Source: Candidatus Dormiibacterota bacterium
GTDB lineage: Bacteria > Patescibacteriota > Saccharimonadia > UBA4664 > DATLOE01
Direction of reading: 5' to 3'
Assembly (NCBI GenBank): GCA_035536395.1
Contig: DATLOE010000003.1
Coordinates: 35,713 to 99,712, forward strand
Length of the DNA: 64,000 bases
The stretch's first letter is position 1; each line of letters begins with the position of its first letter. Below are positions 1,439 through 47,745 of the stretch, one piece after another. Position numbers and translations under genes: made by a program. The notes under the pieces are model-generated. The model had not been told where the DNA came from. It saw nothing but the letters and a program-made list of their open reading frames with translations, and ran no database searches.

Positions 1439-1576
1439 CCCGTTTGTTTTGCTCCTTAAACATATAAAATCCTAGGATTCGATCGGTTTTCCGCCTTTAG
1501 GGCGAAACCCTATCAACTCCTAGTTGGGTTAATGTGTATCTGGTCCGGCGGGCGCCGGATGCATTACTACCAAGTG

Positions 1577-1606
1577 AATATACCAGTAAATATGCTCTCC
1601 TGTCAA
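1577..1606 (-). promoter_or_regulatory. Sigma70-like promoter for rplC (minus-strand sense: TTGACA, 18 nt spacer, TATATT), about 130 nt upstream of the start
   Basis: Read on the minus strand: -35 TTGACA at 1606..1601 and -10 TATATT at 1582..1577. The intervening 5' UTR (1440..1575) contains GC-rich hairpins such as ccggcgggcgccgg. Confidence 0.4.
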
Positions 1607-1633
1607 CAGATATAGCCCAGTTACTTTAACTAT

Positions 1634-1661
1634 TGACAACATAAGCTCTTTAGTGTATAGT
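1634..1661 (+). promoter_or_regulatory. Sigma70-like promoter (TTGACA, 16 nt spacer, TATAGT) for the small plus-strand ORF, which would be leaderless
   Basis: TTGACA at 1634-1639 and TATAGT at 1656-1661, with the first ATG at 1671 only 9 nt downstream. Confidence 0.4.
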
Positions 1662-1670
1662 ATTTGCCAT

Positions 1671-1889
1671 ATGAATACTAATGATTTGTTCTACAATTTA
1701 GAGCGCGCATACGGGCGGATTACAGCTATTAATATAGTCCGCTGGGTTATTGCTTACGTGGTATGGATATTTATCTACACCCAGTTGCCGGAGTCGGTTT
1801 GGGTCGTGCGGCCATTTATGACATTCGTGGCTCAAGTGTTGATAGTAGTTATTATGATCGCGGCTATCGAAAAAGCCCGTAAGATGTAA
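1671..1889 (+). CDS. Small hydrophobic membrane protein (72 aa from the ATG at 1671; the track ORF begins at a GTG at 1653)
   Basis: Two predicted transmembrane segments (VRWVIAYVVWIFIY, VAQVLIVVIMIAAI) and a promoter immediately upstream. No homolog recognised. Confidence 0.4.
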   Translation: MNTNDLFYNLERAYGRITAINIVRWVIAYVVWIFIYTQLPESVWVVRPFMTFVAQVLIVVIMIAAIEKARKM

Positions 1890-1946
1890 CGTCGCCTATC
1901 GTTCGGGTAAAGCAAGAACAAAAGGGTGAGGAGTTTAGAGGTATAC

Positions 1947-3725
1947 TCATGACGCCTTGCCTATTAGTTCGCAGGCAAAATTGGTTGTCCCTGCACCATC
2001 TGCATTCACCGTGGAGCTGTTTCCGCTGCCGATTCCAACATTAACCTGGAAGTAATCAGTTGTGCCGTTAGCTAGGAACGTTCCGGTTGTACTAAGAACC
2101 GGGTTTATGGCCCCGGGAATACCATACCACTCCGCAGCCGCTTTACCGGTGTTGTTATTAACGATAGACCAGCTAACTGTTTGGCTGGCGGCCAGGGTGG
2201 ACATATATATTTGGGCTGAACAGCGATAGTAGCCCTTGATCGTGGGAGTAAACCGGCTGTTGCTGGTATCAAACCAGTTGGATACGTCCCAATCCTCAGC
2301 GTTAAAGGTCACATTCACACCCGCGCCCCCTGGGGTTGGGCTTTGAGAGTTGGTCGTTTTTCTTACACGAAAGCTGCCGGCAGCAAATCCATTAGCATCC
2401 TTGCCGGTTGAGCTCACACTGACACTCTCTGTAGTAATAAACCCGTCTTTATCTATCACAAACTTATCGCCTAGGGAGCCGTTGGTAAGAACCAATAGCT
2501 TAGCCCCAGAGGTGGTTAAGTTGGTATTGGCTTTCAGCTGAAAAGCTATAGTGCTGGCACCATCAGCCTTATTAGAGAACAGTATGCCTCCGGAAGTATC
2601 TACACCCAGTAAGGTAGTCCCCGCCGCATTCTGGACTTGGAAGGCAGTAGTAGAGTTGGCGGCGTTTTTGAATAAAGCGGTACCTTCTCCGGTAAAGTTA
2701 TTAGAAACCACCAGGGAGCCACTGTTAGTTAGTGTGGCAGCGGCTGAACGATATAGGGCAACGTCAATATTTGCGCCTGAATACCAATCTATCTCACTGC
2801 TAGCATCCAGCAGTATGCTAGCTCCTGAGCGCATATCCAGTGCTGGGCCATTGATGTATATGCGGCCACTAAATACTCCGTTGCCTGCTACATCCAGAGT
2901 ATCGGTCGGTGTTTTGCCTATGCCTACCCAGGCGTTAGTGGTGTCGGCCACCAGCAGGTTAGCTCCAGCTGCATTCTGGATTCTGAAGGCAGTGGTAGAG
3001 TCGGCGGCATTACGATGCAGGAGTGTGCCATTGAACCGGTTGTTACCGGTAAAGGTCTGAGGGCCGGTGCCGTTTAGTAGGGCTATGTTAGAGCTTAGTG
3101 CACTATCTGCTACCTTGCCAGCAGTCGAGATGGTGTTTAGCTTAGAGTCAGCTATAGAGCCGGCCAGTTCAGCATTCTCTATCAGCTGGCCGAGTAGAGA
3201 GACGGAAGAGCTTAGTCTGGCGTTATCTAGAGTGCCAGAGGAAAGATTGGTGGCATTAAGGGAGGTAAGGGAGGCACCGGAGCCTGCGAAGGTACCGGCT
3301 TGAACCGTACCTGACACATTGATGTTACCGGTCTCTTGCACTCCTGGGCTGGTGGCCTGGAGTGAGACACAAGTGCCATTGGGGCAGGTGGCAGTACCAC
3401 TGGGGCCTTGGGCACCGGTGGCGCCGGTTGCACCTGTTGGGCCAGTGGCTCCGATTGCACCAGTGACTCCCTGGATGCCTTGTTCCCCTTGTGGGCCGGT
3501 GGAGCCTTGCAGGCCTTGAGATCCCTGGGAGCCTGGCGCACCTTGGAGGCCGGCTGCGCCGGTGAGGCCTATGGGGCCAGCAGTACCGGCTATGCCTTGT
3601 TCACCTCTTGGACCGCGCTCACCGGGGTAGGTTAGGAATTGATCAGCTAGGAGGCCGGCGCCTGAGCTAATGAGGGCGGTGGCTAGGATTAGGGTTAGAA
3701 GTTTGGGGGTGGTTAGGTTCATCAT
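1947..3725 (-). CDS. Membrane-anchored collagen-like (G-X-Y) fibre protein with fibre-type beta repeats and a C1q/TNF-like C-terminal head
   Basis: N-terminal hydrophobic anchor [18 protein letters not shown], then about 75 aa of GxY triplets ([13 protein letters not shown]...), then three copies of the module [17 protein letters not shown]. The C-terminus ([10 protein letters not shown]...[10 protein letters not shown]) resembles BclA/C1q-like domains. Its start overlaps the upstream gene's stop as ATGA. Confidence 0.8.
3098..3395. repeat. About 300 bp near-identical direct repeat, copy 1 (partner at 5581..5880)
   Basis: By eye the nucleotide sequence from cttagtgcactatctgctacc through ggggcaggtggcagt matches copy 2 at about 95%, with 75-85% identity continuing through the GGN collagen-coding region. 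Confidence 0.7.
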
Positions 3726-6316
3726 TCTGCCCTAAAGGTTATGCCATCAAGTGGGAGATACTCTGTAGCGCCAAAGATGTACAATACTTCACCTGCGGAT
3801 CCTGGAGTAAGATTTTTTGATTTAATTACGAAACCACCCAGTATATAGCCAGTACCAGAGCTCCATGAAGCAGTAGAAAACTCCGCATCAGATGTACCAT
3901 CGGGTGCGTACCCTGAAGGCAAAGTGAATATCCTACTAGCTGTTCCCGATGACCGTTTTGCCTGACCTTTAAGGTGAACTACTCCCATAGAATCCTTAAA
4001 GAAGGCAACTGGCCTGTTTGCATCATAATTACCCCAGCCCGTATTAAAGGCCGGCTCTCCGACACCACCTACAAGATGCCAATTTTCCTGCTTAATATAG
4101 CCATCTTTATCTATCGAGAACTTCTCCACTCCATTATTCTTGAGGGATAGCAGTTTAGCACCGGAGGTAGCTAGAGAGACGGTGGTGTTGAAGGTAAAAC
4201 CTACCGCAGTAGCTCCATCTGCTACGCTACTAAATATGCGTGCGTTACTGGTATCAACACCGAATAAGGTAGTCCCAGTTGCATTCTGCACCTGGAAGGC
4301 GGTGGTGGAGTTGGTGGAGTTTTTGAATAAGACTGTCCCCCTGACAGCTAGCTCCTGACCAACCGAGACAGATTGGGTAAAGGTGGCTGGTCCCTGCACT
4401 TGAAGTTGGCCGACCACATTGGTATTGCCCGCCGTCAATTCACCACCCGTCCCGCCTTCAGCCAAGTTTTGGCCGCCCAGACCAACCAGATCAACCGCCC
4501 CACCAATCTTCAGCCGGGAGACTGAGGCATAATAAATAGTGTTTTGAATGCTCTCACCATCATAACCAGCCATTACATAGACCCAGCCATTAGCGATGAT
4601 TGAGCTAGCTGCCCTTCTTGTTGTTGGAAGAGCGGCTAAGTTAGTACTCCAACTGCCTACAGACCCATCGGCATTCAACTTTCCATAGTGGACAGTGGCT
4701 GCGGAATTGCCACCAATTACATACACGTATCCGTCTGCTACTACTGATGAGTGGTTCTCCCGGATAGCAGGCAACGTATTACTATTGGTTGACCAAGCCC
4801 CAGTTGAACCGTCGGCGTTTAACTTTGCGTAGTAAACAGTTGATTGAGCAGCACTGTCGTTTGCACCACCAATCACATAGACATAACCGTTTGCCACAAT
4901 AGAGCTGTGTGAATTTCGAACAGCTGGCAGAGCGTTAGCATTGGTACTCCAGCTGCCAGTGGAGCCATCGGCGTTAAGTTTGGCGTAGTAGACAGTTGAT
5001 TGAGCACTAGCATTAAATCCACCCAATACATATACGTATCCATTTGCAACTACAGAACTGGCAAAACTTCGAGCGGCAGGTAGTGTATTAGAGTTGGTTT
5101 GCCAAGCATCGGTTGAGCCGTCGGCGTTGAGCTTAGCGTAGTAGACAGTAGAGTCTGGTGTGCGCCCACCAATCACGTAAATATATCCATTAGCCACAAC
5201 TGATGTATGGGCTGATCGTACGGCAGGCAAGGCATTCGCATTGGTGGACCAGGTTCCAGCGGATCCATCAGCATTTAGCTTGGCATAATAGACAGTGGAT
5301 TGGGCATTTCCAGATCCAGTCGAATTTTCTCCACCAATCATATACACAAACCCATTAGCAGTGACTGAAGAATGTAACCAGCGGACACCTGGCAAGGCAT
5401 TACTGCCAGTACTCCAACTCTGCAGTTCACCCGAATTTAGTCCGTTAAGAGTTAAATTGCCATTGGTAGTATCTACCTGAAAAAGACTACCTGCCGCTGC
5501 ATTCTGTATCTGGAAGGCGGTCGTGGAATTGGCGGCGTTTCGGTGGAGAAAGGTGCCGTTGAGTAAGGCTACATTGGCACTTAGTGCACTATCTGCTACC
5601 TTGCCGGCAGTCGAGATGGTATTTAGCTTAGAGTCAGCTATAGAGCCGGCCAGTTCAGCATTCTCTATCAGCTGGCCTAAGAGTGAGACGGAAGAGCTTA
5701 GTCTGGCGTTATCTAGAGTGCCAGAGGAAAGATTGGTGGCATTGAGGGAGGTTAGTGAAGCTCCGCTCCCGCTGAAGGAGCCGGCTTGAACCGTACCTGA
5801 CACATTGATATTACCGGTCTCTTGCACCCCTGGGCTTGTGGCCTGGAGTGAAACACAAGTGCCATTGGGGCAGGTGGCAGTGCCGGATGGGCCGGTGGCT
5901 CCGGTTGCACCTGTTGCACCAGTGGCTCCAGTTGCACCAGTGGCTCCCTGGATACCCTGCTCCCCTTGCGGGCCGGTTGAACCTTGGATACCTTGGGCGC
6001 CCTGCTCGCCTGGCGAGCCCTGCAAGCCGGCTGCACCGCTTAGGCCGATGAGGCCAGTGGCTCCCTGGGTACCTTGCTCGCCTTTTGGTCCACGCTCCCC
6101 AGGGTAGGTTAGGTACTGGTCGGCAATGAGACCGCCTGCGGCTCCGACTATGGCAGTTGTAAAGAAGATCATAAGTAGTTGGTTGAAGGAGAGGGAGAGT
6201 ATCCCGGCTTGATTCTTGAGTAACGCAAATAGACCCGTTGGGGGCGGGGTGTTTGGTTGGTGCGAATGCTTCGCAATGGAACCTTTGATGCCTTTTAGGC
6301 CATGAAGGTTAACCAA
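3722..6316 (-). CDS. Membrane-anchored collagen-like fibre protein with a six-blade Kelch-type beta-propeller and a distinct C-terminal domain. The start is uncertain: TTG at 6316 or ATG at 6172.
   Basis: Transmembrane segment [18 protein letters not shown], GxY triplets including (GAT)x5, a shared N-terminal module [30 protein letters not shown], and six repeats of the form [14 protein letters not shown]......P..R......[11 protein letters not shown]. Confidence 0.8.
4530..5450. repeat. Six tandem units of about 150 bp encoding the Kelch blades
   Basis: Repeated DNA units of the form ccaccaatcacata[cg]a[ct]a...cc[ag]tt[ag]gc.ac.a.tga, visible in the sequence and in the protein repeats. Confidence 0.6.
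5581..5880. repeat. About 300 bp near-identical direct repeat, copy 2 (partner at 3098..3395)
   Basis: See copy 1. It encodes the shared module [50 protein letters not shown]. Confidence 0.7.
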
Positions 6317-6357
6317 CCGGATGATAACTCCTCTTTAGTTTTTATTTACTCCACCTT

Positions 6358-6446
6358 GCTTATGCCAAGAACAGGGTGTTTAAGACCCCGAGAAAGCATA
6401 AGCGTGATGTGTAGTAATTATACCGCTTATGCTCAGGGAGTGTAAA
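6358..6446 (-). promoter_or_regulatory. Promoter (TTTACA, 18 nt spacer, TATAAT) plus three copies of the GCTTATGC / GCATAAGC motif upstream of the collagen-fibre operon
   Basis: On the minus strand: -35 TTTACA at 6446..6441 and -10 TATAAT at 6422..6417. Motif copies sit at 6358-6365 (forward), 6396-6403 (reverse) and 6425-6432 (forward, directly abutting the -10). Confidence 0.45.
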
Positions 6447-6455
6447 GGGGTAAAA

Positions 6456-6701
6456 TTAGAATCGCCAAGTGACAGTAATGCCGATACCGAAGAGGCCTAG
6501 CAATGAAGCAATTACAAGTATGGCGTACTCTATTTTGCGATCAATCTGCAGCTTTTCATGACGAACTGCAAGTAAGCCCAGAATCAGGCCGAAGGGCAGC
6601 AGGCGGGCCTCGTTAAAAGCAAACCAAACGCTTCCGATAATGAAGTACAGCAGGATTTTTAAAAAGTAGATGCTATCGAGTTCTTGTTTTACAGGTTTCA
6701 T
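6456..6701 (-). CDS. Small two-TM membrane protein (81 aa from the ATG at 6701; the track ORF extends to 6770)
   Basis: An AGGGG ribosome-binding site precedes the ATG at 6701, and the protein has two hydrophobic helices. The motif copy GCTTATGC lies at 6723-6730, 22 nt upstream. Confidence 0.4.
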   Translation of the reverse strand: MKPVKQELDSIYFLKILLYFIIGSVWFAFNEARLLPFGLILGLLAVRHEKLQIDRKIEYAILVIASLLGLFGIGITVTWRF

Positions 6702-6865
6702 ACCCCTATCTAACCACAAAATGCTTATGCTGTCATCTCCAATGCGCTTATCTTGGCGTTCCCACAACATTCCCCTTGCCCGCCTCAGAAGCTCTTGTTA
6801 ATGCTCCTAATGCCTAACGGCACCTATTGCCTGTAGGATGGAGACAGTAATAAAGGGGGTATGCA

Positions 6866-7089
6866 TGGCAAAAGAACGAGGCAAAATGAGTCGGGCCGAG
6901 GCCGGCAAGCTAGGCGGCGAGGCTACGAGTAAAAAACATGATTCAGAGTTCTACTCTGAGATCGGTCAGAAAGGCGGCCAAGAAAGCGGAGGGAACTTTA
7001 AAAATGACCCCGAGCGGGCCAGGGAGGCCGGCAAGAAAGGCGGCCAGGCATCCACTAGCCGGAGCAGAGAGGATACAGAAGAAATATAG
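6866..7089 (+). CDS. KGG-repeat stress-induced protein (YciG / Con-10-like)
   Basis: MAKERGKMSRAEAGKLGGEATSKK...GQKGGQESGGNF...AGKKGGQAS carries three KGG-type repeats. An AAGGGGG ribosome-binding site sits 6 nt before the ATG at 6866 (the track ORF starts at 6838). Confidence 0.6.
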
Positions 7090-7096
7090 CCTGATA

Positions 7097-7125
7097 AAAG
7101 AGCCCCTTCGGGGGCCTTTTTTATT
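7097..7125 (+). terminator. Rho-independent terminator after the KGG gene
   Basis: Hairpin gagcccc-ttcg-ggggc followed by TTTTTTATTTCTCTCTTT. Confidence 0.6.
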
Positions 7126-7305
7126 TCTCTCTTTAAAACAAAATAACGCCTTTGCTGGAGTGGAGTACAAGGCAGAATCGATATCTAAATAAGTTTATAT
7201 TTTGATGAGATGCAAGGCGGCGCTGAAGCGCGCCAGTGAGCAGTAGCCAAACCTACTGTGAATGCGCACTGGAAGCGCCAACGCCGCAGCTCGCGAAATA
7301 CAAAG

Positions 7306-7752
7306 TTATTGCTTGTAGTAGGAGCGGATTTGGAACAGAATGTACAACCCTATAACCGCGCTCACCAGACCGCTTACAATCTGACCGTTCATAATGCTGT
7401 AAACGAGGTTAACGATGTCACTGTAGAACACTAGGTTCCAGCCGCTCATCTTGCGGGCAAACAGGCCCGGCAGAGCTGCTATCATCAACACTACCTGCAC
7501 AATGAGGGCAATTAAAGCCGCGCCCAAACCGGCGGCTGCTGTAGCTCCCCCGAGGCCAGAAAATGGCAGTACGGCCGCGCCTAAGCCCAGCGCCACTAAG
7601 ATGGCCGGTGCCAGAAGCACTAATATTACGATGTTTATCCATGGAGCGTACTTTACTATCCAGTCTTTAGCGCCTTTGGGGATCTGGAAGGGAGCCTTTG
7701 TTACAAAATAATACTCCATCTTTTGCATGATACCTTGTGATTGCTGGGCCAT
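7306..7752 (-). CDS. 4-TM membrane protein, paralog A (unknown family)
   Basis: 148 aa. Shares with paralog B the features W(I/V)V(K/R)(Y/N)A.W, KGWNL, and a C-terminal QIRSYYK. Confidence 0.55.
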   Translation of the reverse strand: MAQQSQGIMQKMEYYFVTKAPFQIPKGAKDWIVKYAPWINIVILVLLAPAILVALGLGAAVLPFSGLGGATAAAGLGAALIALIVQVVLMIAALPGLFARKMSGWNLVFYSDIVNLVYSIMNGQIVSGLVSAVIGLYILFQIRSYYKQ

Positions 7753-7817
7753 AAGTTTTCCTTTACTTAAGGTTAATTTGCTTTAATTAAAGCACTACGG
7801 CACCCAAAAAGCAATAC

Positions 7818-7826
7818 GCTTATGCT
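7818..7826. promoter_or_regulatory. GCTTATGCT motif copy upstream of paralog A
   Basis: cgCTTATGCTTtg lies about 66 nt upstream of the ATG at 7752 and overlaps the stop of the preceding gene. Confidence 0.35.
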
Positions 7827-8281
7827 TTGTAATAAGAGCGAATTTGGAGCAGTATATAGAAGCTAATGCCGGTTATTACTACAGCCGTTACGTAATGGCC
7901 AAAAACGATATCGTATATTGTATGGGTTATGGCAGCCGCGGCCAGCAGATTCCAGCCCTTCATCTCTCTGCGCTCTAGCGGCTTAATGGCCAGTGCGATC
8001 AATATAAACTGGATGATTAATGCTACCGCCCCGCCGCTTATATCACTGGCTGAACTTGGTATACCCAGAAATGCCAGCGGCAGCTTGTTTATACCCAGCA
8101 CCACGGCCAGCGCTACTACCGGCAGATAGAGAATGGTGAGCAATATGGCTACCCAGTGAGCGTTGCGTACGATCCACTCCTTAGCCCAGAAAGGCAGGCG
8201 GTACCCGCCGCCATCGCTGTAGCCGCGCACGGCTGCCTGACGGCCAGAATTGCCCCGGTTTACCTTGCGTCCGCCCGCCAT
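7820..8281 (-). CDS. 4-TM membrane protein, paralog B
   Basis: 153 aa ending QIRSYYKA. A GAAGGGGAA ribosome-binding site lies inside the end of the upstream micro-ORF. Confidence 0.55.
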   Translation of the reverse strand: MAGGRKVNRGNSGRQAAVRGYSDGGGYRLPFWAKEWIVRNAHWVAILLTILYLPVVALAVVLGINKLPLAFLGIPSSASDISGGAVALIIQFILIALAIKPLERREMKGWNLLAAAAITHTIYDIVFGHYVTAVVITGISFYILLQIRSYYKA

Positions 8282-8284
8282 CTG

Positions 8285-8416
8285 CTATTCCCCTTCGACG
8301 CCCGGCAGATCTACCTTGTGGCCGTTCGTACAGTGGCCATGATTGTCTTGTTCCTGGCAGTCTTCATCTTGGCAGTTTAGAGCTACTTCTTCGCTACATT
8401 CTACGCATTTAGCCAT
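8285..8416 (-). CDS. Cys/His-rich 43 aa micro-protein, a putative zinc-binding peptide (below the ORF-track size cutoff)
   Basis: MAKCVECSEEVALNCQDEDCQEQDNHGHCTNGHKVDLPGVEGE, with 6 Cys and 3 His. A consensus AGGAGG ribosome-binding site sits 6 nt upstream, and its stop is 3 nt from the ATG of paralog B. Confidence 0.45.
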   Translation of the reverse strand: MAKCVECSEEVALNCQDEDCQEQDNHGHCTNGHKVDLPGVEGE

Positions 8417-8442
8417 AAATTCCTCCTGTTAGGTTTATTAAT

Positions 8443-8454
8443 GCTTATGCTTAT
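8443..8454. promoter_or_regulatory. Tandem GCTTAT-GCTTAT motif copy upstream of the micro-protein operon
   Basis: atGCTTATGCTTATat lies 27 nt upstream of the ATG at 8416. Confidence 0.35.
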
Positions 8455-8488
8455 ATTTTAGCACATCTGGTGAATATTTTAGAAAAAG

Positions 8489-9154
8489 TTAGCTCTTAAG
8501 CCGAGAGTACTCGGCAATAAGCTTTACCTTATCCTTAAAGTCAGGGGTCGCGCGCCACTTACTCAGTAGCTGCTTGTCTGTCCTTAGGCTATATGAAGCC
8601 CTAGATTTTTCCGCGCTTAAATCTTTAAGCAGTAAGTCGGTCATTAATTCCATAAATAATCTATTTTGGCCCTTACCAATGTCAACTTTGGATTGCCTAA
8701 TATATTCGATAATATATAAATGCATCAGCTCATGCAGTAGCGGATCTATAAAGTTCGGCCAGTCATAATAAAGATCAATGCGTTTTTTATCCGAGAAAGC
8801 AATATGCGGAGGAATTGCCGACAGGCCAATAATACAAATACCAGAAATTTTTACTGGTACAGTTGCTTCACAAATTTTTATTACTCCCCCTCCGTCTTGA
8901 GTCAGTTGTTTTTGCAACCGATCTTTTGCCTTTGCAAATAAGCCTCTGTTTTGCTTATAAAAGTTATCAAAGTAATCTTCTAGCGGTTTGAGCGCGCTTC
9001 CTTTTGGATAGGTCTGATAAATATTGGCGAGATCAGGATGCCGACTCACTATCACATTATAGTAGCTTAATCCTGACCACTCAGGCATTGAATATCCAAA
9101 TGCCCCTGCCTTAAGCGGGTCAAAATCCTTTGCCAGTTGGATTGTAAACTTCAT
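8489..9154 (-). CDS. Cytoplasmic HExxH-motif protein, a putative zinc metallohydrolase of unknown family
   Basis: 221 aa containing DPLLHELMHLYIIEY. A TATAAT at 9169..9164 lies only about 10 nt upstream of the ATG, so the transcript is probably leaderless. Confidence 0.45.
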   Translation of the reverse strand: MKFTIQLAKDFDPLKAGAFGYSMPEWSGLSYYNVIVSRHPDLANIYQTYPKGSALKPLEDYFDNFYKQNRGLFAKAKDRLQKQLTQDGGGVIKICEATVPVKISGICIIGLSAIPPHIAFSDKKRIDLYYDWPNFIDPLLHELMHLYIIEYIRQSKVDIGKGQNRLFMELMTDLLLKDLSAEKSRASYSLRTDKQLLSKWRATPDFKDKVKLIAEYSRLKS

Positions 9155-9210
9155 AGACCATCTATTATAAAGAAAAATGGCCAGTTTGGAGACATGGCCA
9201 GGTCTTTTTT

Positions 9211-9366
9211 CTACTTGTCCTCCCAGCCAGGGTATATCCGCTCCATGGCCTCGTCGGACTTCTGCTCGTCAGAGGCAGAACCCGGAGGGGAGGAGGGAGA
9301 TGAGGAAGAACCAGAGGAATCCGAGCTCTCTGAGCCCGAGGAACCGCTACTGGACTCTCCGTCCAT
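9211..9366 (-). CDS. Ser/Gly-rich acidic 51 aa micro-ORF (uncertain)
   Basis: MDGESSSGSSGSESSDSSGSSSSPSSPPGSASDEQKSDEAMERIYPGWEDK with AAAGGAG 5 nt upstream of the ATG. It competes with the low-complexity track ORFs 9137..9400 (+) and 9165..9482 (-). Confidence 0.3.
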   Translation of the reverse strand: MDGESSSGSSGSESSDSSGSSSSPSSPPGSASDEQKSDEAMERIYPGWEDK

Positions 9367-9547
9367 TTGCACTCCTTTGTCTGGGCATCCAATTTTTTAA
9401 GCTGCCGGACTATCCGGCCTCTTGTCGTATTGGGCGCCGTTTGATAGGTGCTTGGAGGGGATAGGCAGAGCCTAGACGCCATCTCCGTAGCAGTACGCTA
9501 ACTTATACAACAATTACTGCAATTATTCAATAGATGAGTAGCTATGT

Positions 9548-9886
9548 TTACAAATAAAACGCCAAGATGCCATGTTCGGCAATTTTTTCTCTATAGCCCT
9601 GAAAGCCATAATAAACCTTTTCGGCTTCCTCTAGGGATTCTATACCTGGCATAACCTTGCCAAAATCACCTGATTTATAGATGTCTTCTACAGATTTATA
9701 GTGCCTAATGTCTTTCACGGTCTTTTCGATCGTGTCGCTACCGCATTTGATTACTAACGTATCGCCAACTTCGATTTTCTTAAACTTAACTGTGCCAGCG
9801 CGGGTTTCTACCGTCTTCCGCCCCACCCGAATATCTTCGAACTCATCCTTATCCCCCGCCCTGAATCTTAGAATATGCTTTTTCAT
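9548..9886 (-). CDS. ASCH/PUA-like small domain protein
   Basis: 112 aa beginning MKKHILRFRAGDKDEFEDIRVGRKTVETRAG, a pattern that resembles ASCH domains. Assigned from memory. Confidence 0.4.
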   Translation of the reverse strand: MKKHILRFRAGDKDEFEDIRVGRKTVETRAGTVKFKKIEVGDTLVIKCGSDTIEKTVKDIRHYKSVEDIYKSGDFGKVMPGIESLEEAEKVYYGFQGYREKIAEHGILAFYL

Positions 9887-9922
9887 TTTGCCCCCACTGT
9901 GGATAAATCTATTGTCATAGCG

Positions 9923-9948
9923 CTTATGCTTGCTACAATAAGCATAAG
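9923..9948. promoter_or_regulatory. Perfect 9 bp inverted repeat CTTATGCTT-N8-AAGCATAAG, an operator-like site
   Basis: cgCTTATGCTTgctacaatAAGCATAAGta lies 37-62 nt upstream of the ATG at 9886. Confidence 0.45.
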
Positions 9949-10013
9949 TATAATATTCAGAACTAATGCGAGTGGGGAGTGTAGTTGCTTCCCTCTCGTT
10001 TTTTGATCCTTAA

Positions 10014-10214
10014 CTAGTCGTTAAGAAGATCATTAAGCGAGTCTTTGCCGCGCCGCTCGAGCAGCGTGTCGAGATACATATCAGAGCGAACATTAAAGTC
10101 CACCCCATATTGCTCCTCGATCGTGCGTACGTGGGTATCCCCACGCTTCTCACGAAGCGGGCCTCTGGAGTTTCGGGAGCGGTGACCCCGCATCCCTGGA
10201 GCATCCTTAGCCAT
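10014..10214 (-). CDS. Small hypothetical protein (66 aa from MAKDAPG; the track ORF extends to 10265)
   Basis: A GAAAGG ribosome-binding site precedes the internal ATG, and the protein is basic. The motif copy CTTATGCTTGCTAC lies at 10362-10375. Confidence 0.35.
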   Translation of the reverse strand: MAKDAPGMRGHRSRNSRGPLREKRGDTHVRTIEEQYGVDFNVRSDMYLDTLLERRGKDSLNDLLND

Positions 10215-10361
10215 TGCAAGCCTTTCTAGCCGGTGTCTTAAGGTGTTTATCCGGCCAGTCCTCAACCGAACACCACACCGTAAAGGAGAGAGGCCTCCCC
10301 ACTCACATCAATTCTCAAGGAATGAATACTAGGTTAGCAAAAACTCACGTGTCGCACAATA

Positions 10362-10375
10362 CTTATGCTTGCTAC
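10362..10375. promoter_or_regulatory. Motif copy CTTATGCTTGCTAC
   Basis: A 14 nt stretch identical to 9923-9936. Confidence 0.35.
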
Positions 10376-11058
10376 TTGAGGTAGTTGGGCAAGGCTTGGC
10401 GGTTTGGCAGCCACTTAGTATACCAACCAAGCAGTTCCGGAGGCAAAAGACTGTCATGCAATTCAGTACCGATGAAAGAATGCAATTCGTCAGTAAAATC
10501 AGTAGATCCCGGCAGCACACCCCTATGATGGTATGATGCAGTGCGTTGATCAAACGCCGCTTTGTGCTGACCATACACAATATTTAAATATGGGGTCAGG
10601 CGGTTTCTTTCAGATTCTGAACTAATAAACCACACGTAATGTAGATATTCATGGGCTAAAGTTGCCCTTTGCTCTAATAAATCTCTCTGTAAAATCTCCG
10701 GCGCCAAGTAAATAGTGCCGTCTTTAATAGCGCCATAGGCATGATATGAAGCTGCAAAGCAGCCTGTAGAGCCTGGTGGGCAACCCATTGGAAGAGGGGC
10801 AATCCTAGCCTTTGTTCTTAGTAAATCGTCTCGATTAATACCTAAATCTGCGCCCCACTGCTCAATGCGGCGATCAAGAACAAACTTAGGGTCAATCGGG
10901 AAAGAGCCAAGTCCTATTCTTGGGTTATAGCCTATCTTCTCTCGCACACTCTTGATAAGAGGGTGCTCAATCGCCGTGGGATCCAAGACCAAGCCAATTG
11001 CTAACACGGCAATGATGACTGCAACCTTAAAGCCCGTTTTGAAAACATGCTTTTTCAT
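10372..11058 (-). CDS. Secreted or membrane-anchored HExxH-motif protein, a putative zinc metallopeptidase
   Basis: N-terminal hydrophobic segment VAVIIAVLAIGLVL and the motif TLAHEYLHYVWF. Confidence 0.5.
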   Translation of the reverse strand: MKKHVFKTGFKVAVIIAVLAIGLVLDPTAIEHPLIKSVREKIGYNPRIGLGSFPIDPKFVLDRRIEQWGADLGINRDDLLRTKARIAPLPMGCPPGSTGCFAASYHAYGAIKDGTIYLAPEILQRDLLEQRATLAHEYLHYVWFISSESERNRLTPYLNIVYGQHKAAFDQRTASYHHRGVLPGSTDFTDELHSFIGTELHDSLLPPELLGWYTKWLPNRQALPNYLK

Positions 11059-11071
11059 CTTTTAGAAGTTA

Positions 11072-11839
11072 CTAGCTTTCTTTCTGATCCCAAATAATTA
11101 CTTCTTTGTGCAACTCTTGAACTGACTGAAGATAGAAGAGCATATCGCGAGCAGCTCTCTCGACTACATATCCGCGAAGTGAACGCCAATTTTCAACATT
11201 ATCTTGCGACCAGTCTTTTTCAGGAGAATTCAGTAAGAAAGGAAAAAGATTCACATTTTTCTCTAGTTCGGTTAATGCACGTCTTACTTTGAGCATTTTT
11301 GCATAAACGGTTTTTGGCATCACAGAAGAATAATACTGTAGATTCTCATTGGCTGATTTTCTTAATTCTTCAATATTTTTTATTAGGCTGTCCCACTTGT
11401 CGGGTGGTAGCTTAGTCATAGCTTGACCCAGGTCAATTGCAATTAAATTACTGAGTATAGCCTCTTGTGCAGCTTTAGTGGATTCTTCCTGACGGTCGGT
11501 ATCAATTTTGTATTGGGTTATATCAAAGCCTAAAGGTGATGACACCCAGATGATAAGCGTATTACGAAGTCTTTTCATATCCTCAAGGGCGGATTCCATG
11601 CCCTCGCGAAGGCTAAGCTTATCCTTCCTATCCTTCAGTACCTCGATGAAAAATACGGTGAGCAGGGAGCTAAAGGCGCCGGCAGAGAGGTTAAGGGTCA
11701 TGTCACTCCACCGAAAGTGCTTTTCCTGATAGCCTAATGCCACAAAGAGTCCAACCGACATCACCAAAAGGGCGAGAAAAATAATGATATTAGCACGAGA
11801 GTAAAGGAGCCTGTAAAATTTCCTAAAGGCCCGACGCAT
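11072..11839 (-). CDS. Membrane protein with two N-terminal TM segments and a long cytoplasmic helical region, unknown function
   Basis: 255 aa. Its start is 3 nt downstream of the rpsJ stop, so it is probably co-transcribed with tuf-rpsJ. Confidence 0.5.
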
Positions 11840-11842
11840 ACA

Positions 11843-12184
11843 TTACATCTTAATTTCTATGTCCACCCCAGCGGGGAGGTTCAAATTCATCAGGTTGTCT
11901 ACGGTCTTTGGCGTAGGCTCTGTAATGTCTATTAAGCGCTTATGTGTGCGCATCTCAAACTGTTCCCGCGCTTTCTTAAAAATGTGCGGGCTTTTAATAA
12001 CGGTAGTCACGTTTCTATCTGTCGGCAGCGGAATCGGCCCGGCCACTTTGGCGCCGGTACGAATCGCCGTATCTAGAATCTGCTTGGCAGACTGATCTAT
12101 CACCTTATTGTCATACGCCTTTAAGCGAATGCGTATTCTCTGTTTGGGTGCTTCAGTATTTTCTTTCTTTTTTGCTTCTGCCAA
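11843..12184 (-). CDS. rpsJ: 30S ribosomal protein S10
   Basis: Contains [22 protein letters not shown]...HKRLIDI. Confidence 0.95.
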
Positions 12185-12209: not shown

Positions 12210-13388
12210 TTACTTTAAGATCTTACTTACGACACCGGCACCTACTGTGCGTCCGCCTTCGCGAATAGCAAAGCGCAGACCGTCTTCCATGGCAATTGGG
12301 GCAATCAGCTTAACTTTAACGCTGATGTTATCGCCCGGCATGACCATTTCTGTGCCCTCCGGCAGGGTAACCTCGCCGGTAACATCGGTGGTACGAATGT
12401 AGAACTGAGGCTTGTAACCCTTGAAGAATGGGGTGTGACGTCCGCCTTCCTCTTTCTTCAGTACGTATACTTCTGCGTCGAACTCAGTGTGAGGGGTAAT
12501 AGTACCGGGCTTAGCCAGAACCTGGCCGCGCTCAATGTCATCGCGCTCAATACCGCGCAACAGGGCGCCAACGTTATCGCCGGCCTGTGCGTCTGGCAGA
12601 AGCTTCTTGAACATTTCTACCCCGGTAATCACGGTCTTCTTGGTAGCATTAATGCCGACAATTTCGACTTCGTCGTTTACAGCCAGCTTACCGCGCTCAA
12701 TACGGCCGGTAGCAACTGTACCGCGGCCTTTAATAGAGAACACGTCTTCTACCGGCATTAAGAACGGCTTTTCTACATCGCGCTTTGGCTCTGGTACGTA
12801 GGAATCCAGGGCGTCCATAAGGTCGGTAATGCTTTTTTCAGCATCGGCGTCGCCTTCTAGCGCTTTAAGAGCAGAACCCTTAACAATCGGGGTGTCATCG
12901 CCCGGAAAGTCATACTTCTTCAGTAAATCACGGATTTCGAGCTCTACCAGCTCAGCCAGCTCTGGGTCGGCCATATCCATCTTGTTCATGTAAACAATGA
13001 TGTAAGGCACACCAACCTGACGGGCAAGCAGAATGTGCTCGCGGGTCTGGGGCATTGGGCCATCGGCAGCTGAAACCACAAGAATAGCGGCATCCATCTG
13101 GGCGGCTCCGGTAATCATGTTCTTAACGTAGTCGGCGTGGCCTGGGCAGTCTACGTGGGCGTAGTGCCTTTTGTCTGTTTCGTACTCCTGATGAGAAGTA
13201 GCAATAGTAATACCGCGCTCTTTCTCTTCTGGAGCGTTATCAATATCTTCGTATTTGCGGGCCGTAGCCTGACCTGATTTGCTAAGTACGTGTGTAATAG
13301 CGGCTGTCAGGGTAGTTTTGCCGTGGTCAACGTGGCCAATGGTGCCGACATTGATGTGGGGCTTGGTACGTGTAAATGTTTCTGCCAT
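12210..13388 (-). CDS. tuf: Elongation factor Tu
   Basis: Contains [10 protein letters not shown] and DCPGHADY. Length 392 aa. Confidence 0.97.
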
Positions 13389-15112: not shown

Positions 15113-15155
15113 ATAAAAAAGCCCCTGACTTAGAAGTCGGGGGCTTTCGCCTTTT
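15111..15155. terminator. Bidirectional intrinsic terminator between the convergent PyrD-like gene and fusA
   Basis: gcccctgactt-ag-aagtcgggggc, flanked by an A-run on the 5' side and a T-run on the 3' side. Confidence 0.6.
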
Positions 15156-17235
15156 AAGCCTTGGCTGTGCGCTTACCTATAATTTCTTCAGCCACATTCG
15201 GCGGCACTTCCTCGTAATGATCAAATTCCATCGAGTTCGAGGCCCGGCCTTGGGTCATTGAACGCAGAGTGGTGGTGTAGCCGAACATCTCTGCCAGCGG
15301 CACGAACGCGTCTACCACCTTGGCCTGGCCACGGTCATCCATTTTCTCTATCCGCCCGCGCTTGGAGTTAAGATCACCGATAACATCACCCATAAACTCC
15401 TCGGGTGTTACCACCTCTACCTTCATGACTGGCTCGAGCAGTACCGGGCTGGCCTGCTTTACGCCGGCCTGCAGTGCCATGGAACCGGCAATCTTAAAGG
15501 CCATTTCGCTAGAGTCTACATCGTGGTACGAGCCATCGTAGAGCTTAACGTGCACATCTACCACCGGGTAGCCGGCCAGAACACCATTCTGCAAAGCTTC
15601 TTTTACACCCTGCTCAACTGGGGCAATGTATTCGCGCGGAATATTACCGCCGGTAATAGCGTTCTTGAATTCAAAGCCTGCGCCCGGCTCCTGCGGGGTC
15701 AGCTCCAGCCAGACATGGCCGTACTGGCCGCGGCCGCCGGATTGGCGAATGTACTTGCCTTCGATCTTGGCCGGCTTGCGAATGGTTTCGCGGTAAGCCA
15801 CCTGCGGGCGGCCAATATTGGCCTCTACCTTAAACTCACGCTTCATACGATCTACAATAATATCCAGGTGCAGCTCGCCCATACCAGAAATCAAAGTCTG
15901 GTTGGTTTCGTGATTAGTCGTCATTCTAAATGTCGGATCTTCCTCGGCCAGGCGCTGCAGAGCAATACTCATCTTCTCTTGGTCGGCCTTGGTCTTCGGC
16001 TCGATGGCGATGGAAATAACCGGCTCTGGGAAGGTGATAGATTCCAGTACAATCGGGTGAGCCGGATCGCACAAGGTATTACCAGTAGTGGTAGCCTTAA
16101 GCCCCACGGCGGCGGCGATTTCGCCCGAATAGACCTCGCTGACTTCCTCGCGGTGGTTTGCGTGCATTCTAAGTATTCGCCCCAGCCGCTCCTTTTCGCC
16201 CGTGCTGGAGTTTAGGATATATGAGCCGGATTTTAATACACCCGAGTACACACGGAAAAAAGCCAGCTTACCCACGAACGGGTCGGCGGCGATCTTAAAG
16301 GCCAGGGCAGCAAACGGCTCTTCGTCTGATGCCTTACGGGTAATCTCATCGCCGCTTTTAGGCTCGATACCAGTAATTTCTGGCACATCCAGCGGGCTGG
16401 GCAGGTATGCATTTACGGCATCAAGCAGCTGCTGCACGCCTTTGTTCTTTAGGGCCGAACCACATAATACGGGGTAGATTTCGTTAGCAAGTACCGCCTT
16501 GCGCAGACCGGCCACGATATCTTCAGGACTTAGGTCACCAGCTTCTATGTATTTATCTAGCAAGGCCTCATCGGTCTCGGCTACCCGCTCTACCAAAGTG
16601 TGGCGGTACTCAGCGGCTTTTTCCTTCATGTCTTCTGGAATCTCAGCTTCGTCAAAAACCTTACCGAGGTCGTCTTTAAAGATAATCGCCTTCATATTTA
16701 CTAGGTCTATAATTCCTTTGAATCCACCCTCTGTGCCAATCGGCAGCTGTATGGCTACAGCCTTTTTGCTTAGGCGATCCCAAATGCTTTTAAGGTCGGC
16801 AAAAAAATCGGCACCGGTACGATCGAGCTTGTTTACAAAGCAAATGCGCGGCACTTCATATTTGTCGGCCTGGCGCCAAACGGTTTCTGATTGCGGTTCA
16901 ACACCAGCAACCCCATCAAAAACCGTTACTCCGCCATCTAGCACCCGCAAGCTGCGCTCTACCTCTACGGTAAAATCTACGTGGCCCGGGGTATCGATGA
17001 TGTTAATGCGGTGATCTTGCCAGAAGCAAGTGGTAGCAGCCGAGGTAATAGTAATGCCGCGCTCCTGCTCTTGCTCCATCCAGTCCATGGTGGCTTCACC
17101 CTCATGCACCTCACCGATTTTGTGGGTGCGACCGGTGTAAAACAAAACCCGCTCGGTAACTGTCGTTTTACCGGCGTCGATGTGGGCGATGATGCCTATA
17201 TTCCTGGTTTTTTCTAAGCTATATTCTCTGGCCAT
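15154..17235 (-). CDS. fusA: Elongation factor G
   Basis: 693 aa containing AHIDAGKTT. Confidence 0.97.
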
Positions 17236-17912: not shown

Positions 17913-18575
17913 CTAGGCGTAATTCAATTCTGCGAAGAAGCGCTGGCTGGGGTTTTGGGCGAGCAGGTATATTAGATCGGGCACGCTTACAATCAGTTTG
18001 TCGTCTTTAATATCCGCAATATCAGCCCAAAAGCTCTCGCCGGCTTTAACCCTAGCTTTAAGTTTGCCAGACGGGCTCTGCCCGTAAAAGAGGTGGAACA
18101 GAATCTGGCTGACCGGCTCCCCTTCCTCGCAGATAGAAATGTAGCCATCACCGCGGTGTGTGAGCGCAACACTCAAACCTGTCTTTTCCTTAAGTTCGCG
18201 CTCAGCTGCCTCTTTAACACTCTCACCTATGTGCAGCTTACCGTACGGAAAGCCCACCTGGCCGTACAGAGGCTGGCGGCGGCGGCGGAACATCAGCCAC
18301 TGCCCTTCCTCGTTTTGGCAGACGATCAAAGTTACGATTCTAGGCTGCAAACGCGGTTTAAAAAGCTGCAGACTGAACTGGTCGGCCCGCACCTTGCCCT
18401 CTGGTGTCAGCTCATATAGACCATCGTCTGTCTTTTCCACCAAACCCTCTTTTGTCAGCTGGCGCAGGTGGTACATAAAGAGATTACCCTCCACCTCAGC
18501 CGGCTTAAGTTGGGAATAACGCAGCTGGGAGTTGGTGATTAGTTTATGGAAGATGTGTTTTTGCAGACGGTGCAT
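17913..18575 (-). CDS. Nudix hydrolase with an N-terminal winged-helix DNA-binding domain
   Basis: Nudix box GKLHIGESVKEAAERELKEKTGL (G-x5-E-x7-REUxEExGU). The N-terminal 60 aa (HKLITNSQLRYSQL...YHLRQLTKEGLV) resemble a winged helix-turn-helix. Confidence 0.6.
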   Translation of the reverse strand: MHRLQKHIFHKLITNSQLRYSQLKPAEVEGNLFMYHLRQLTKEGLVEKTDDGLYELTPEGKVRADQFSLQLFKPRLQPRIVTLIVCQNEEGQWLMFRRRRQPLYGQVGFPYGKLHIGESVKEAAERELKEKTGLSVALTHRGDGYISICEEGEPVSQILFHLFYGQSPSGKLKARVKAGESFWADIADIKDDKLIVSVPDLIYLLAQNPSQRFFAELNYA

Positions 18576-18620: not shown

Positions 18621-18663
18621 TTTGACTCAAATTTTTTCGACTAGATACTATTTGACTCAAATT
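18621..18663. promoter_or_regulatory. Two perfect 13 nt direct repeats TTTGACTCAAATT, 30 bp apart, in the divergent promoter region
   Basis: Copies at 18621-18633 and 18651-18663. They lie between the wHTH-Nudix gene (-) and the four-gene operon (+). Confidence 0.4.
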
Positions 18664-18710
18664 CTAATATGAGGTCGTTGGGTGAGAAAGCAACTTGAAA
18701 AGGAGCCGAA

Positions 18711-47661: not shown

Positions 47662-47745
47662 CCTCCTGGTACGGGTTTAGAGGGAGCGTTAAGCTGTTAA
47701 CTCAACGCGAAAAGTATACCAGTAAAGCTTATGTTTGTCAATAGC

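What the first reader, a model, noticed from the sequence alone, without database searches (positions are those of the whole stretch)
6340..10380. Recurrent operator-like motif CTTATGCTT / AAGCATAAG in the promoter regions of at least six island transcription units
The core GCTTATGC, often extended to CTTATGCTT(G), occurs at 6358, 6396 (reverse), 6425, 6723, 7818, 8443 plus 8449 (tandem), 9923, 9940 (reverse) and 10362. The copy pair at 9923-9948 is a perfect 9 bp inverted repeat with an 8 bp spacer, which is the classic footprint of a dimeric transcription factor. Three copies in alternating orientation sit upstream of the collagen-fibre operon, one of them abutting the -10. All copies lie within 20-110 nt upstream of minus-strand gene starts in the island. 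I did not see the motif in the core-gene intergenic regions of this window. This suggests a dedicated regulon controlled by an unidentified regulator, which may be encoded elsewhere.
Basis: seen in the sequence. Interest (0 to 1): 0.75.

Follow-up and report, generated by a model that had tools for sequence, protein, structure and literature searches.

The report
Conserved AGCATAAGC promoter box, Saccharimonadia island
A 9-base DNA word (AGCATAAGC) sits inside or next to the promoters of about ten small envelope, stress and surface-fibre genes in this candidate-phylum bacterium and is kept unchanged in the same promoters of related genomes, so it is almost certainly a binding site for a still unknown gene regulator.

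Summary
AGCATAAGC occurs 6 times exactly (about 0.5-0.9 expected), only between 6395 and 9930 and only between genes. The window is a Saccharimonadia (Patescibacteria) ribosomal-protein cluster with a 10-kb insertion between rpsJ and rplC. Related genomes (EF-G 77-83% identical) carry insertions at the same spot. There the box is invariant in orthologous promoters while the flanks diverge, typically as TTGCnn-N6-AGCATAAGC-N2-TATtAT. Housekeeping promoters (tuf, rplC) lack it. Across all sites the box takes several positions: just upstream of the -10, just after the -35, upstream of the -35, over the start site, or in a leader. It occurs in both orientations. This favours an autonomous protein-binding site that overlaps core promoters, most likely a repressor operator, over an element read by RNA polymerase. 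The 9-N8-9 inverted repeat is conserved in one relative, but with a spacing 2 bp shorter. Its arms flank the -10 of a plus-strand promoter, so a rigid dimer footprint is not shown. No regulator was found in the window. The motif appears undescribed. It is a new member of a known kind.

The parts
6425..6433 (-). Box AGCATAAGC in the spacer of the collagen-operon promoter, 2 nt upstream of the -10
   Evidence: TTTACA (6446-6441) - 18 nt - TATAAT (6422-6417), 11 of 12 consensus matches.
6395..6403 (+). Box in reverse orientation, about +8 to +16 of the collagen-operon transcript. It forms the 5' arm of the leader hairpin.
6358..6366 (-). Box gGCATAAGC in the collagen-operon leader. It forms the 3' arm of the leader hairpin (pairs with 6395-6403).
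   Evidence: MFE -25.5 kcal/mol, z = -3.6, 0 of 200 shuffles fold as well.
6723..6731 (-). Box directly after the -35-like ATGACA (6736-6731), upstream of the 81-aa membrane protein gene 6456-6701. A degenerate second copy, AGATAAGC, lies at 6745-6752.
   Evidence: The putative -10 TTAGAT is at 6713-6708.
7818..7826 (-). Box overlapping the TAA stop codon of membrane paralogue A (7820-8281), 66 nt upstream of paralogue B (7306-7752). The decayed orthologous promoter lies at about 7770-7795.
8443..8451 (-). Box in the promoter of the Cys-rich 43-aa ORF (8285-8416) and paralogue A. This is the orthologous position of the invariant box in relatives.
   Evidence: alignment A2: the nine columns of AGCATAAGC are invariant in 6 sequences.
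9922..9930 (-). Box forming the left arm of the inverted repeat. It lies in the spacer of the + strand promoter, ending 2-3 nt before its -10, and 37 nt upstream of the ASCH gene start (9886).
9940..9949 (+). Box AAGCATAAGT forming the right arm of the inverted repeat. It starts right after the -10 of the + strand promoter and overlaps its start site.
9912..9939 (+). Sigma-70-like promoter TTGTCA-16-TGcTACAAT whose -10 lies in the spacer of the inverted repeat
   Evidence: 10 of 12 matches plus TG. The -35 TTGTCA and the arm layout are conserved in L158.
10361..10370 (-). Box AAGCATAAGT abutting the conserved TATTGTGCGACAC, directly after the stop codon of the 228-aa gene. It marks the 5' edge of the module carrying the 66-aa gene (10014-10214).
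   Evidence: L158 has AAGCGTAAG-N5-TATTGTGCGACAC.
1633..1661 (+). Promoter TTGACA-17-TATAGT with the variant box AACATAAGC (1638-1646) directly after the -35. It drives a small membrane-protein ORF (about 1672-1889).
47713..47741 (-). Promoter TTGACA-17-TATACT with the variant box AACATAAGC (47727-47735) after the -35. It drives the orphan 106-aa membrane protein gene 47335-47655, outside the island.
1440..11840 (-). Insertion between rplC (770-1438) and rpsJ (11843-12184) that holds most boxes. Its genes are two collagen-like proteins, small membrane proteins, a KGG stress protein (+ strand), an ASCH protein, two HExxH proteins and the 66-aa protein.
   Evidence: The same hot spot is occupied in relatives.

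Best explanation
AGCATAAGC is the recognition site of a lineage-specific, sequence-specific DNA-binding regulator. The regulator is not encoded in this window. One box is one binding unit.

In nearly all targets the box lies inside or against a sigma-70-type core promoter: between the -35 and the -10, flanking the -10, over the start site, or just upstream of the -35. Occupancy would therefore exclude RNA polymerase, which makes the regulator most likely a repressor. Extra boxes at the collagen-operon leader and around the -10 at 9934-9939 would serve as auxiliary or cooperative operators.

The regulon covers small envelope and stress genes: an aquaporin (in relatives), a conserved pair of membrane-protein paralogues with a Cys-rich micro-ORF, small membrane proteins, collagen-like surface fibres, a widely conserved 66-aa protein, and probably KGG.

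Shown: recurrence, clustering, intergenic location, conservation in orthologous promoters, and position relative to the promoter hexamers. Inferred: that a protein binds, that it represses, and which signal it answers.
For: 1. Enrichment and clustering. All exact copies are intergenic (P = 6e-13).

2. Phylogenetic footprint. In orthologous promoters of the Cys-rich/paralogue-A operon from 6 sequences, the nine columns of AGCATAAGC are invariant, while mean column identity is 57%. Relatives have EF-Tu 79% and EF-G 77-83% identical to the window's.

3. The box is embedded in promoter-like hexamers. The pattern GC[AT]T[AT]AG-N3-TAnnnT is found 18 times against 1.7 in shuffles, and 15 of the 18 (11 distinct promoters once the near-identical contigs L153/L154/L155 are merged) lie 25-75 nt upstream of same-strand start codons. 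The pattern -35 hexamer + 0-2 nt + box is found 6 times against 0.42.

4. Position and orientation vary. The box is found forward next to the -10 (W 6425, 8443; L001, L003, L152-L155). It is found forward next to the -35 (W 6723, 1638, 47727; L065 533, 5111). It is found reversed next to the -10 (W 9923 for the + strand promoter; L158; L156 6734). It is found upstream of the -35 (L156 6757, promoter TTGACA-17-TAGAAT, 11 of 12). It is found over the start site or in a leader (W 9940, 6395, 6358). Sources.

5. Housekeeping promoters of the same genomes (tuf, rplC) are canonical and lack the box.

6. More distant Saccharibacteria with the same membrane-protein gene lack the box. This fits a regulator and site that co-evolved within one lineage.
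Against: No candidate regulator was found. Pfam scans of essentially all window ORFs gave only a wHTH-NUDIX protein, which has its own different palindromic operator.

The conserved block is short (9 bp) and asymmetric, which is unusual for dimeric helix-turn-helix repressors.

In the relatives the box has one rigid position and orientation (TTGCnn-N6-box-N2-TATtAT in about 9 distinct promoters). That is what a polymerase-read element or a copied promoter module would also give.

The promoter hexamers and start sites are predicted, not mapped. Several window sites (7818, 9922 for the ASCH gene, 10361) have no convincing -35.

Only about 170-450 kb of clade sequence could be examined, not whole genomes.
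Confidence: 0.5

Rival explanations
1. The box is a promoter-specificity element read by the transcription machinery itself. This could be an unusually long extended -10 / spacer element, recognised by an alternative or specialised sigma factor or by an RNAP-bound accessory factor. It would define a stress/envelope promoter class (positive control rather than repression).
For: In relatives, about 9 distinct promoters of unrelated genes (MIP, Cys-rich ORF + paralogue A, paralogue B) share one rigid architecture and orientation: (G)TTGCnn-N6-AGCATAAG-N3-TAT(T/G)AT. Their -35 is consistently TTGC.., unlike the housekeeping TTGACA/TTTACA. The target genes (KGG, aquaporin, membrane proteins) resemble general-stress regulons that are sigma-controlled elsewhere (established knowledge for SigB and RpoS).
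Against: The box also occurs 5-7 bp further upstream, next to consensus -35 hexamers. It occurs in reverse orientation next to -10 hexamers (W 9923, L158, L156). It occurs upstream of a -35 (L156 6757) and in transcribed leaders (W 6395, 6358). A polymerase-read element should have one position and one orientation. No sigma factor gene is in the window.
Confidence: 0.25
2. There is no common regulator. The box is a hitch-hiking piece of a promoter module that has been copied or recombined between transcription units in the rpsJ-rplC hot spot. It may itself serve as a junction or recombination site between gene cassettes.
For: The module of box, TATTGTGCGACAC, leader, 66-aa gene, terminator, inverted repeat, TGACAAT and TTATCCACAG is found at a different locus in L158 (after fusA). 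Homology begins exactly at the upstream box. A 14-nt exact repeat CTTATGCTTGCTAC occurs at 9923 and 10362, and a 12-nt perfect inverted repeat brackets the 66-aa gene. Block 8489-11839 has 44% GC against 51-52% in core genes.
Against: Similarity between copies ends within 9-14 nt. Flanks of non-orthologous promoters are unrelated. The box is invariant at 77-83% EF-G divergence while neighbouring bases drift, which needs selection on the box itself. There is no integrase, recombinase or transposase in the window (Pfam calls), no target-site duplications, and no dif-like 11-6-11 or attC architecture.
Confidence: 0.1
3. The element acts at the RNA level. Paired copies would form stem-loops that stabilise or process transcripts (5' leader hairpin, intergenic hairpin).
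For: The collagen-operon leader folds with the two copies 6395-6403 and 6358-6366 as the stem (z = -3.6). The inverted repeat 9923-9948 can form a 9-bp stem, and its arms are conserved with a different loop in L158.
Against: Most sites are single copies with no partner. In the relatives the box lies between well-spaced -35 and -10 hexamers and so would not be transcribed. The inverted repeat has no U-tract. There is no Rfam match. The stem arms are identical to the DNA motif, so no compensatory change can be scored.
Confidence: 0.07

Closest known systems
Repressor operators that overlap core promoters and define small regulons (LexA SOS boxes, CtsR and HrcA/CIRCE operators, Fur boxes)
   Same: A short conserved word recurs in or against the -35/-10 hexamers of several unlinked transcription units. 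It is conserved upstream of orthologous genes, multiple copies occur at some promoters, and the regulator can be encoded elsewhere.
   Different: Those operators are 14-27 bp palindromes or tandem heptads with fixed internal spacing. Here the conserved unit is a single asymmetric 9-mer, and paired copies have variable spacing. The sequence matches none of those consensus sites (recalled from memory, not tested against a motif database).
RDRM, the operator of the XRE-family repressor DdrO (controlled by the IrrE/PprI protease) in Deinococcus
   Same: The half-site TTATGYY / RRCATAA (consensus core TATGYYHTTARCRKA; PMC8533742) reads like the box (TTATGCT / AGCATAA). RDRM sites also sit around the -35/-10 and from about -50 to +20 of start sites. 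In other phyla, homologues of the 66-aa gene lie next to S24/LexA-like or HTH_3 + M78 genes.
   Different: RDRM is a 17-bp palindrome with about 3 bp between the half-sites. Here the arms are 8-10 bp apart in the one conserved inverted repeat, and most sites are single. No XRE/M78 pair is present in the window. The resemblance is a lead only.
Extended -10 (TGn) and the '-16 region' (TRTG) promoter elements of Gram-positive bacteria
   Same: In class-A promoters the box occupies about -23 to -15, directly upstream of the -10, in a fixed orientation. -35 hexamers are sometimes weak.
   Different: It is 9 bp long rather than 2-4 bp. Housekeeping promoters of the same genomes use the ordinary TGn instead. 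The box is also found at other positions and in reverse.
Factor-dependent promoter boxes that replace or supplement the -35 (phage T4 MotA box; mycobacterial PafBC / RecA-NDp element)
   Same: An asymmetric box lies at a set distance upstream of a good -10 and defines a co-regulated promoter class.
   Different: Those boxes sit about 8-13 bp upstream of the -10 and replace the -35. Here the box is 2-3 bp from the -10 and a -35-like TTGC is usually still present. No such factor was identified.

Membership tests
Palindromic operator of a dimeric HTH repressor | Two inverted half-sites at a fixed centre-to-centre distance in most sites | tested here: not met
   One 9-N8-9 inverted repeat among 9 window copies. 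L158 keeps it with a core spacing of 8 instead of 10 nt. Other pairs are 15, 21 and 28 nt apart. Twelve or more promoters in relatives have a single box.
Palindromic operator of a dimeric HTH repressor | Sites overlap or abut core promoter elements of the target genes | tested here: met
   (predicted hexamers; no TSS data).
Palindromic operator of a dimeric HTH repressor | Site conserved upstream of orthologous genes across species | tested here: met
   Alignment A2. Paralogue-B promoters.
Palindromic operator of a dimeric HTH repressor | A cognate DNA-binding regulator, often nearby or autoregulated | tested here: inconclusive
   No fitting regulator among the window ORFs (Pfam).
RDRM / DdrO-IrrE regulon | 17-bp palindrome TTATGYY-N3-RRCATAA | tested here: not met
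   The half-site matches, but no partner half-site occurs at N3 for any box (inspection). The inverted-repeat spacing is 8-10 nt.
RDRM / DdrO-IrrE regulon | An XRE repressor plus an M78 (IrrE/ImmA) metalloprotease gene pair | tested here: not met
   Neither is in the window. The two HExxH proteins give no M78 hit even at E <= 10. The rest of the genome is unknown.
Polymerase-read promoter element (extended -10 type or alternative-sigma promoter) | A single orientation and a fixed distance to the -10 (and -35) at all functional sites | tested here: inconclusive
   Met for 15 class-A hits (11 distinct promoters). Not met for class-B sites, reversed copies and leader copies.
Polymerase-read promoter element (extended -10 type or alternative-sigma promoter) | A dedicated sigma or RNAP-associated factor whose presence co-varies with the motif | not testable with these tools
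   Whole genomes of the clade could not be retrieved.
REP / MITE-like intergenic repeats | Units of 20 nt or more, with an extended imperfect palindrome or terminal inverted repeats, and similarity that continues into the flanks | tested here: not met
   Repeat families stop at 9-14 nt (D2, D5, D8, D16).
Site-specific recombination sites (dif/Xer, integron attC) | An 11-6-11 or attC architecture plus a recombinase gene | tested here: not met
   No such architecture. No integrase or recombinase domains in the window (Pfam calls).
Known RNA families | A match to an Rfam covariance model | tested here: not met
   Only one tRNA in the window. Nothing at 6200-10500 above noise, and nothing in L001, L003, L152, L156 or L158.

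The most novel reading that the evidence does not exclude
The box is not a classical operator. It would be the address label of a portable promoter system specific to this CPR lineage: a 9-bp element read by an RNAP-associated factor (sigma-adaptation type) that also marks the junctions at which promoter-gene modules are shuffled into the rpsJ-rplC hot spot. That would explain why newly acquired low-GC genes and a relocated 66-aa-gene module all carry it.
Probability: 0.1. Interest if true: 0.75.

Novelty: new member of a known kind. Interest (0 to 1): 0.5.

Why it matters
Almost nothing is known about transcriptional regulation in Saccharibacteria and other Patescibacteria. These organisms have tiny genomes, few regulators and an epibiotic lifestyle.

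A conserved, promoter-embedded box shared by aquaporin, membrane-protein, stress-protein and collagen-like surface-fibre genes gives a concrete, testable regulon. A defined 9-bp bait can be used to fish out the regulator. The regulon may bear on how these cells remodel their envelope or attachment structures.

The work also documents the rpsJ-rplC junction as a conserved insertion hot spot whose cargo is wired into one control circuit.

The kind of thing found, a transcription-factor or promoter box that defines a regulon, is ordinary.

Tried and rejected
- **Chance:** rejected.
- **Phage origin or phage promoter:** two IMG/VR scans were run. The full class-A promoter pattern gave one hit inside a coding region. 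The inverted repeat gave none.
- **Known RNA family, riboswitch or terminator:** no Rfam hits. The inverted repeat has no U-tract.
- **The 66-aa protein flanked by boxes as the regulator:** it belongs to a widely conserved family (138 hits, 65-82% identity, several phyla), and homologues in other phyla lack the motif, so it is unlikely.
- **The Cys-rich micro-ORF as the regulator:** it is basic in relatives but acidic here, so this is unsupported.
- **The wHTH-NUDIX protein (17913-18575) as the regulator:** it has its own different palindromic operator.
- **Conservation of the class-B promoter at 47741:** the gene is an orphan, so no orthologous promoter exists to compare.
- **Getting more of the source genome:** look-ups returned only overlapping sequence.
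- **Wider family survey:** the genome and metagenome scans with the membrane protein mostly returned Acidobacteriota and other high-GC loci without the motif.
- **Literature:** no paper mentions the motif or a Saccharibacteria regulon.
- **Sporulation-sigma, ECF, sigma-28 or ComX-type promoter readings:** considered and dropped, because the spacing to TTGC and to TATtAT fits only a sigma-70-type 17-bp spacer.
- **My early guess that L158 was the closest relative:** wrong. EF-G identity is 80%, against 83% for L003.

Full report
**Setting**

The window is a minus-strand str/S10 ribosomal cluster. It holds rplD (73-777), rplC (770-1438), rpsJ (11843-12184), tuf (12210-13388), fusA (15154-17235), rpoC and rpoB. 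About 10.4 kb is inserted between rplC and rpsJ.

The insertion encodes:
- two collagen-like proteins, one with Kelch repeats;
- an 81-aa membrane protein;
- a plus-strand KGG stress protein;
- two paralogous 148/153-aa membrane proteins preceded by a 43-aa Cys-rich ORF;
- two HExxH proteins, an ASCH protein and a 66-aa protein.

The exact 148-aa protein is on record from an NCBI MAG labelled Dormibacteraeota. Its nearest relatives, and the synteny, are Saccharimonadia / Patescibacteria. EF-Tu is 79% and EF-G 77-83% identical to those relatives.

**Observation**

On the gene strand the motif reads a-AGCATAAG-C. There are six exact 9-mers, all between 6395 and 9930.

- The 9-mer CTTATGCTT occurs 6 times against 0.89 in shuffles.
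- The 8-mer count alone (7 against 4.5) is not significant, but all seven copies lie in 3.6 kb and between genes.
- Across eight clade loci, 14 of 17 exact 8-mers lie in the 8.6% of sequence not covered by ORF calls (P = 6e-13). The other three lie in spurious ORFs.
- It is the top intergenic 8-mer of the window.
- The 9-N8-9 inverted repeat at 9923-9948 is perfect.

**Relatives**

Relatives reached through the 148-aa protein (L001; L002, which is the same as L003; L152; L153-L155; L156) have insertions at the same rpsJ-rplC junction. Their cargo overlaps that of the window: MIP aquaporin, DUF308, the Cys-rich ORF, the two paralogues, RarA, the 81-aa membrane protein and a large surface protein.

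In these relatives the promoters of the MIP gene, of the Cys-rich ORF + paralogue A, and of paralogue B read TTGCnn-N6-AGCATAAG(C)-N2/3-TAT(T/G)AT.
- A regular expression for box + N3 + TAnnnT gives 18 hits against 1.7 in shuffles. Fifteen of them (11 distinct promoters, because the near-identical contigs L153, L154 and L155 repeat the same ones) lie 25-75 nt upstream of same-strand start codons.
- In the alignment of orthologous promoters the nine box columns are invariant, while mean column identity is 57%.
- Housekeeping promoters of the same genomes lack the box. These are rplC (TTGACA..cTGaTATAGT) and tuf (TTTACA-17-TATAMT).
- More distant Saccharibacteria and the many Acidobacteriota homologues lack it.

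The box is therefore a selected, lineage-specific cis element tied to promoters.

**Position and orientation**

Position relative to the promoter hexamers is not unique.
- **Class A.** Forward box 2-3 nt upstream of the -10. Examples are W 6425 (TTTACA-18-TATAAT, 11 of 12), W 8443 and all class-A promoters in relatives.
- **Class B.** Forward box 0-2 nt after a -35 hexamer. Examples are W 6723, W 7818, the variants at W 1638 (TTGACA-17-TATAGT) and W 47727 (TTGACA-17-TATACT), and L065 533 and 5111. This pattern is found 6 times against 0.42.
- **Reverse orientation next to a -10.** Examples are W 9923 relative to the plus-strand promoter TTGTCA-16-TGcTACAAT, the same layout in L158, and the variant at L156 6734 inside TTGACA-17-TAGAAT.
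- **Upstream of a -35.** L156 6757.
- **Over the start site or in a leader.** W 9940, 6395, 6358.

An element read by RNA polymerase should have one position and one orientation. A protein-binding site that blocks the promoter need not. This is the main reason I favour a regulator site, probably a repressor operator. The rigid class-A architecture in relatives keeps the polymerase/sigma reading alive.

**The inverted repeat**

L158 (EF-G 80% identical) carries a homologous module after fusA. In order, it holds:
- the variant box AAGCGTAAG;
- TATTGTGCGACAC;
- a leader of about 130 nt;
- the 66-aa gene;
- a terminator hairpin;
- CCTTATGCTT-gaacgtt-AGCATAAGC;
- GTGACAAT;
- TTATCCACAG.

This is the same order as window 10370-9899. 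The arms are conserved. The spacer differs in sequence, and the core-to-core distance is 8 nt instead of 10. The downstream gene also differs.

Read on the opposite strand, the conserved TGACAA is a -35 (TTGTCA) and the -10 lies in the spacer of the inverted repeat, so the two arms bracket the -10. In the window that promoter points at the strong hairpin and U6 tract at 9968-10005 (z = -4.0). This predicts a plus-strand RNA of about 57 nt, antisense to the 3' end of the 66-aa gene. The same hairpin is also the sense terminator, and L158 has a sense U-tail.

The inverted repeat is therefore functional and looks like an operator. It appears to control a plus-strand promoter, and its spacing is not rigid.

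**Collagen operon**

Three boxes are present. One is in the promoter spacer. One is reversed at about +8 to +16. One is forward about 38 nt further on. The last two pair in the leader RNA (z = -3.6). This could reflect auxiliary operators, an RNA stem, or both.

**Search for the regulator**

Pfam scans of the window ORFs found no fitting DNA-binding protein. The wHTH-NUDIX protein has its own palindrome.

The 66-aa protein is a widely conserved family. In other phyla its homologues lie next to S24/LexA-like or HTH_3 + M78 genes but lack the box.

The box resembles the half-site of the Deinococcus DdrO operator RDRM (TATGYYHTTARCRKA; PMC8533742). The half-site spacing differs, and no XRE/M78 pair is present. 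I treat this as a lead only.

**Known families and literature**

There is no Rfam match, no phage link and no literature on the motif.

**Verdict**

The best explanation is a 9-bp binding site of an unidentified lineage-specific regulator that overlaps core promoters of an envelope/stress/surface regulon, most likely repressive (confidence 0.5). The rivals are:
- a polymerase- or sigma-read promoter element (0.25);
- a copied promoter module or cassette junction without a shared regulator (0.1);
- an RNA-level stem element (0.07).

It is a new member of a known kind. Interest is moderate, because regulation in Patescibacteria is essentially uncharted and the box gives a direct experimental handle.

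Noticed in passing
window 1440-11840; L001, L002/L003, L152-L156: The rpsJ-rplC junction, normally contiguous in the S10 operon, is a conserved insertion hot spot in this Saccharimonadia clade. The cargo is variable (MIP, DUF308, membrane paralogues, RarA, surface proteins, and in L155 a group-II-intron-type reverse transcriptase). rplC has its own strong promoter downstream of the insertion.
   Followed up: partly
window 9946-10005 (+): A plus-strand RNA of about 57 nt is predicted. It would start at the promoter TTGTCA-16-TGcTACAAT (9912-9939) and end at a strong hairpin plus U6 (z = -4.0), antisense to the 3' end of the 66-aa gene. The -35 and the hairpin are conserved in L158, but the L158 -10 is weak (TAACGT).
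   Followed up: partly
window 9899-9907 (- strand TTATCCACA); L158 3798-3806: A perfect DnaA-box consensus, TTATCCACA(G), is conserved in both genomes. It lies 4-5 nt from the TTGTCA -35 of the plus-strand promoter. Its function is unknown.
   Followed up: no
window 9956-9979 / 10295-10318 and 9940-9951 / 10359-10370: A 24-nt inverted repeat (83%) and a 12-nt perfect one bracket the 66-aa gene. The leader segment GTGAGTGGGGAG is complementary to the descending arm of the terminator, and this is also true in L158. Possible readings are long-range 5'/3' pairing or cassette ends. The L158 leader also has a terminator-like hairpin (3388-3406).
   Followed up: partly
window 18623-18665: Two copies of the palindrome TTTGAcTCAAA(TT), 28 nt apart, lie in the divergent region upstream of the wHTH-NUDIX gene (17913-18575). 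This is a likely autoregulatory operator of that protein and is unrelated to the AGCATAAGC box.
   Followed up: no
window 10014-10214 (-): The 66-aa protein (MAKDAPGMRG...KRGDTHV.TIE..YGVDF.VRSDM.LDTLL) belongs to a highly conserved small-protein family with no Pfam model. It has 138 hits at 65-82% identity across phyla. In three unrelated loci it lies next to S24/LexA-like or HTH_3 (+/- M78) regulator genes, which hints at a stress- or damage-inducible gene.
   Followed up: partly
window 8285-8416 (-); L003, L152: A conserved Cys/His-rich micro-ORF (CxxC...C...C...HGHC..GH, about 40 aa) always precedes membrane paralogue A behind the best-conserved box. It is basic in relatives and acidic here.
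   Followed up: no
window 7770-7795 (-): This is a remnant of the orthologous class-A promoter of paralogue B (GTGCTT-taatta-AAGCAAA, with the -10 lost). A fresh exact box lies 30 nt upstream, overlapping the stop codon of paralogue A.
   Followed up: partly
window 8489-11839: This block has 44% GC against 51-52% in core genes and is absent from relatives' islands. It was probably acquired recently, yet it carries three boxes.
   Followed up: partly
L156 6680-6756 (-): The strong promoter TTGACA-17-TAGAAT upstream of a transglycosylase (Rpf-like) gene is followed within about 12 nt of the predicted start by a terminator-like hairpin plus a T-run. This may be a leader attenuator. There is no Rfam match.
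   Followed up: partly
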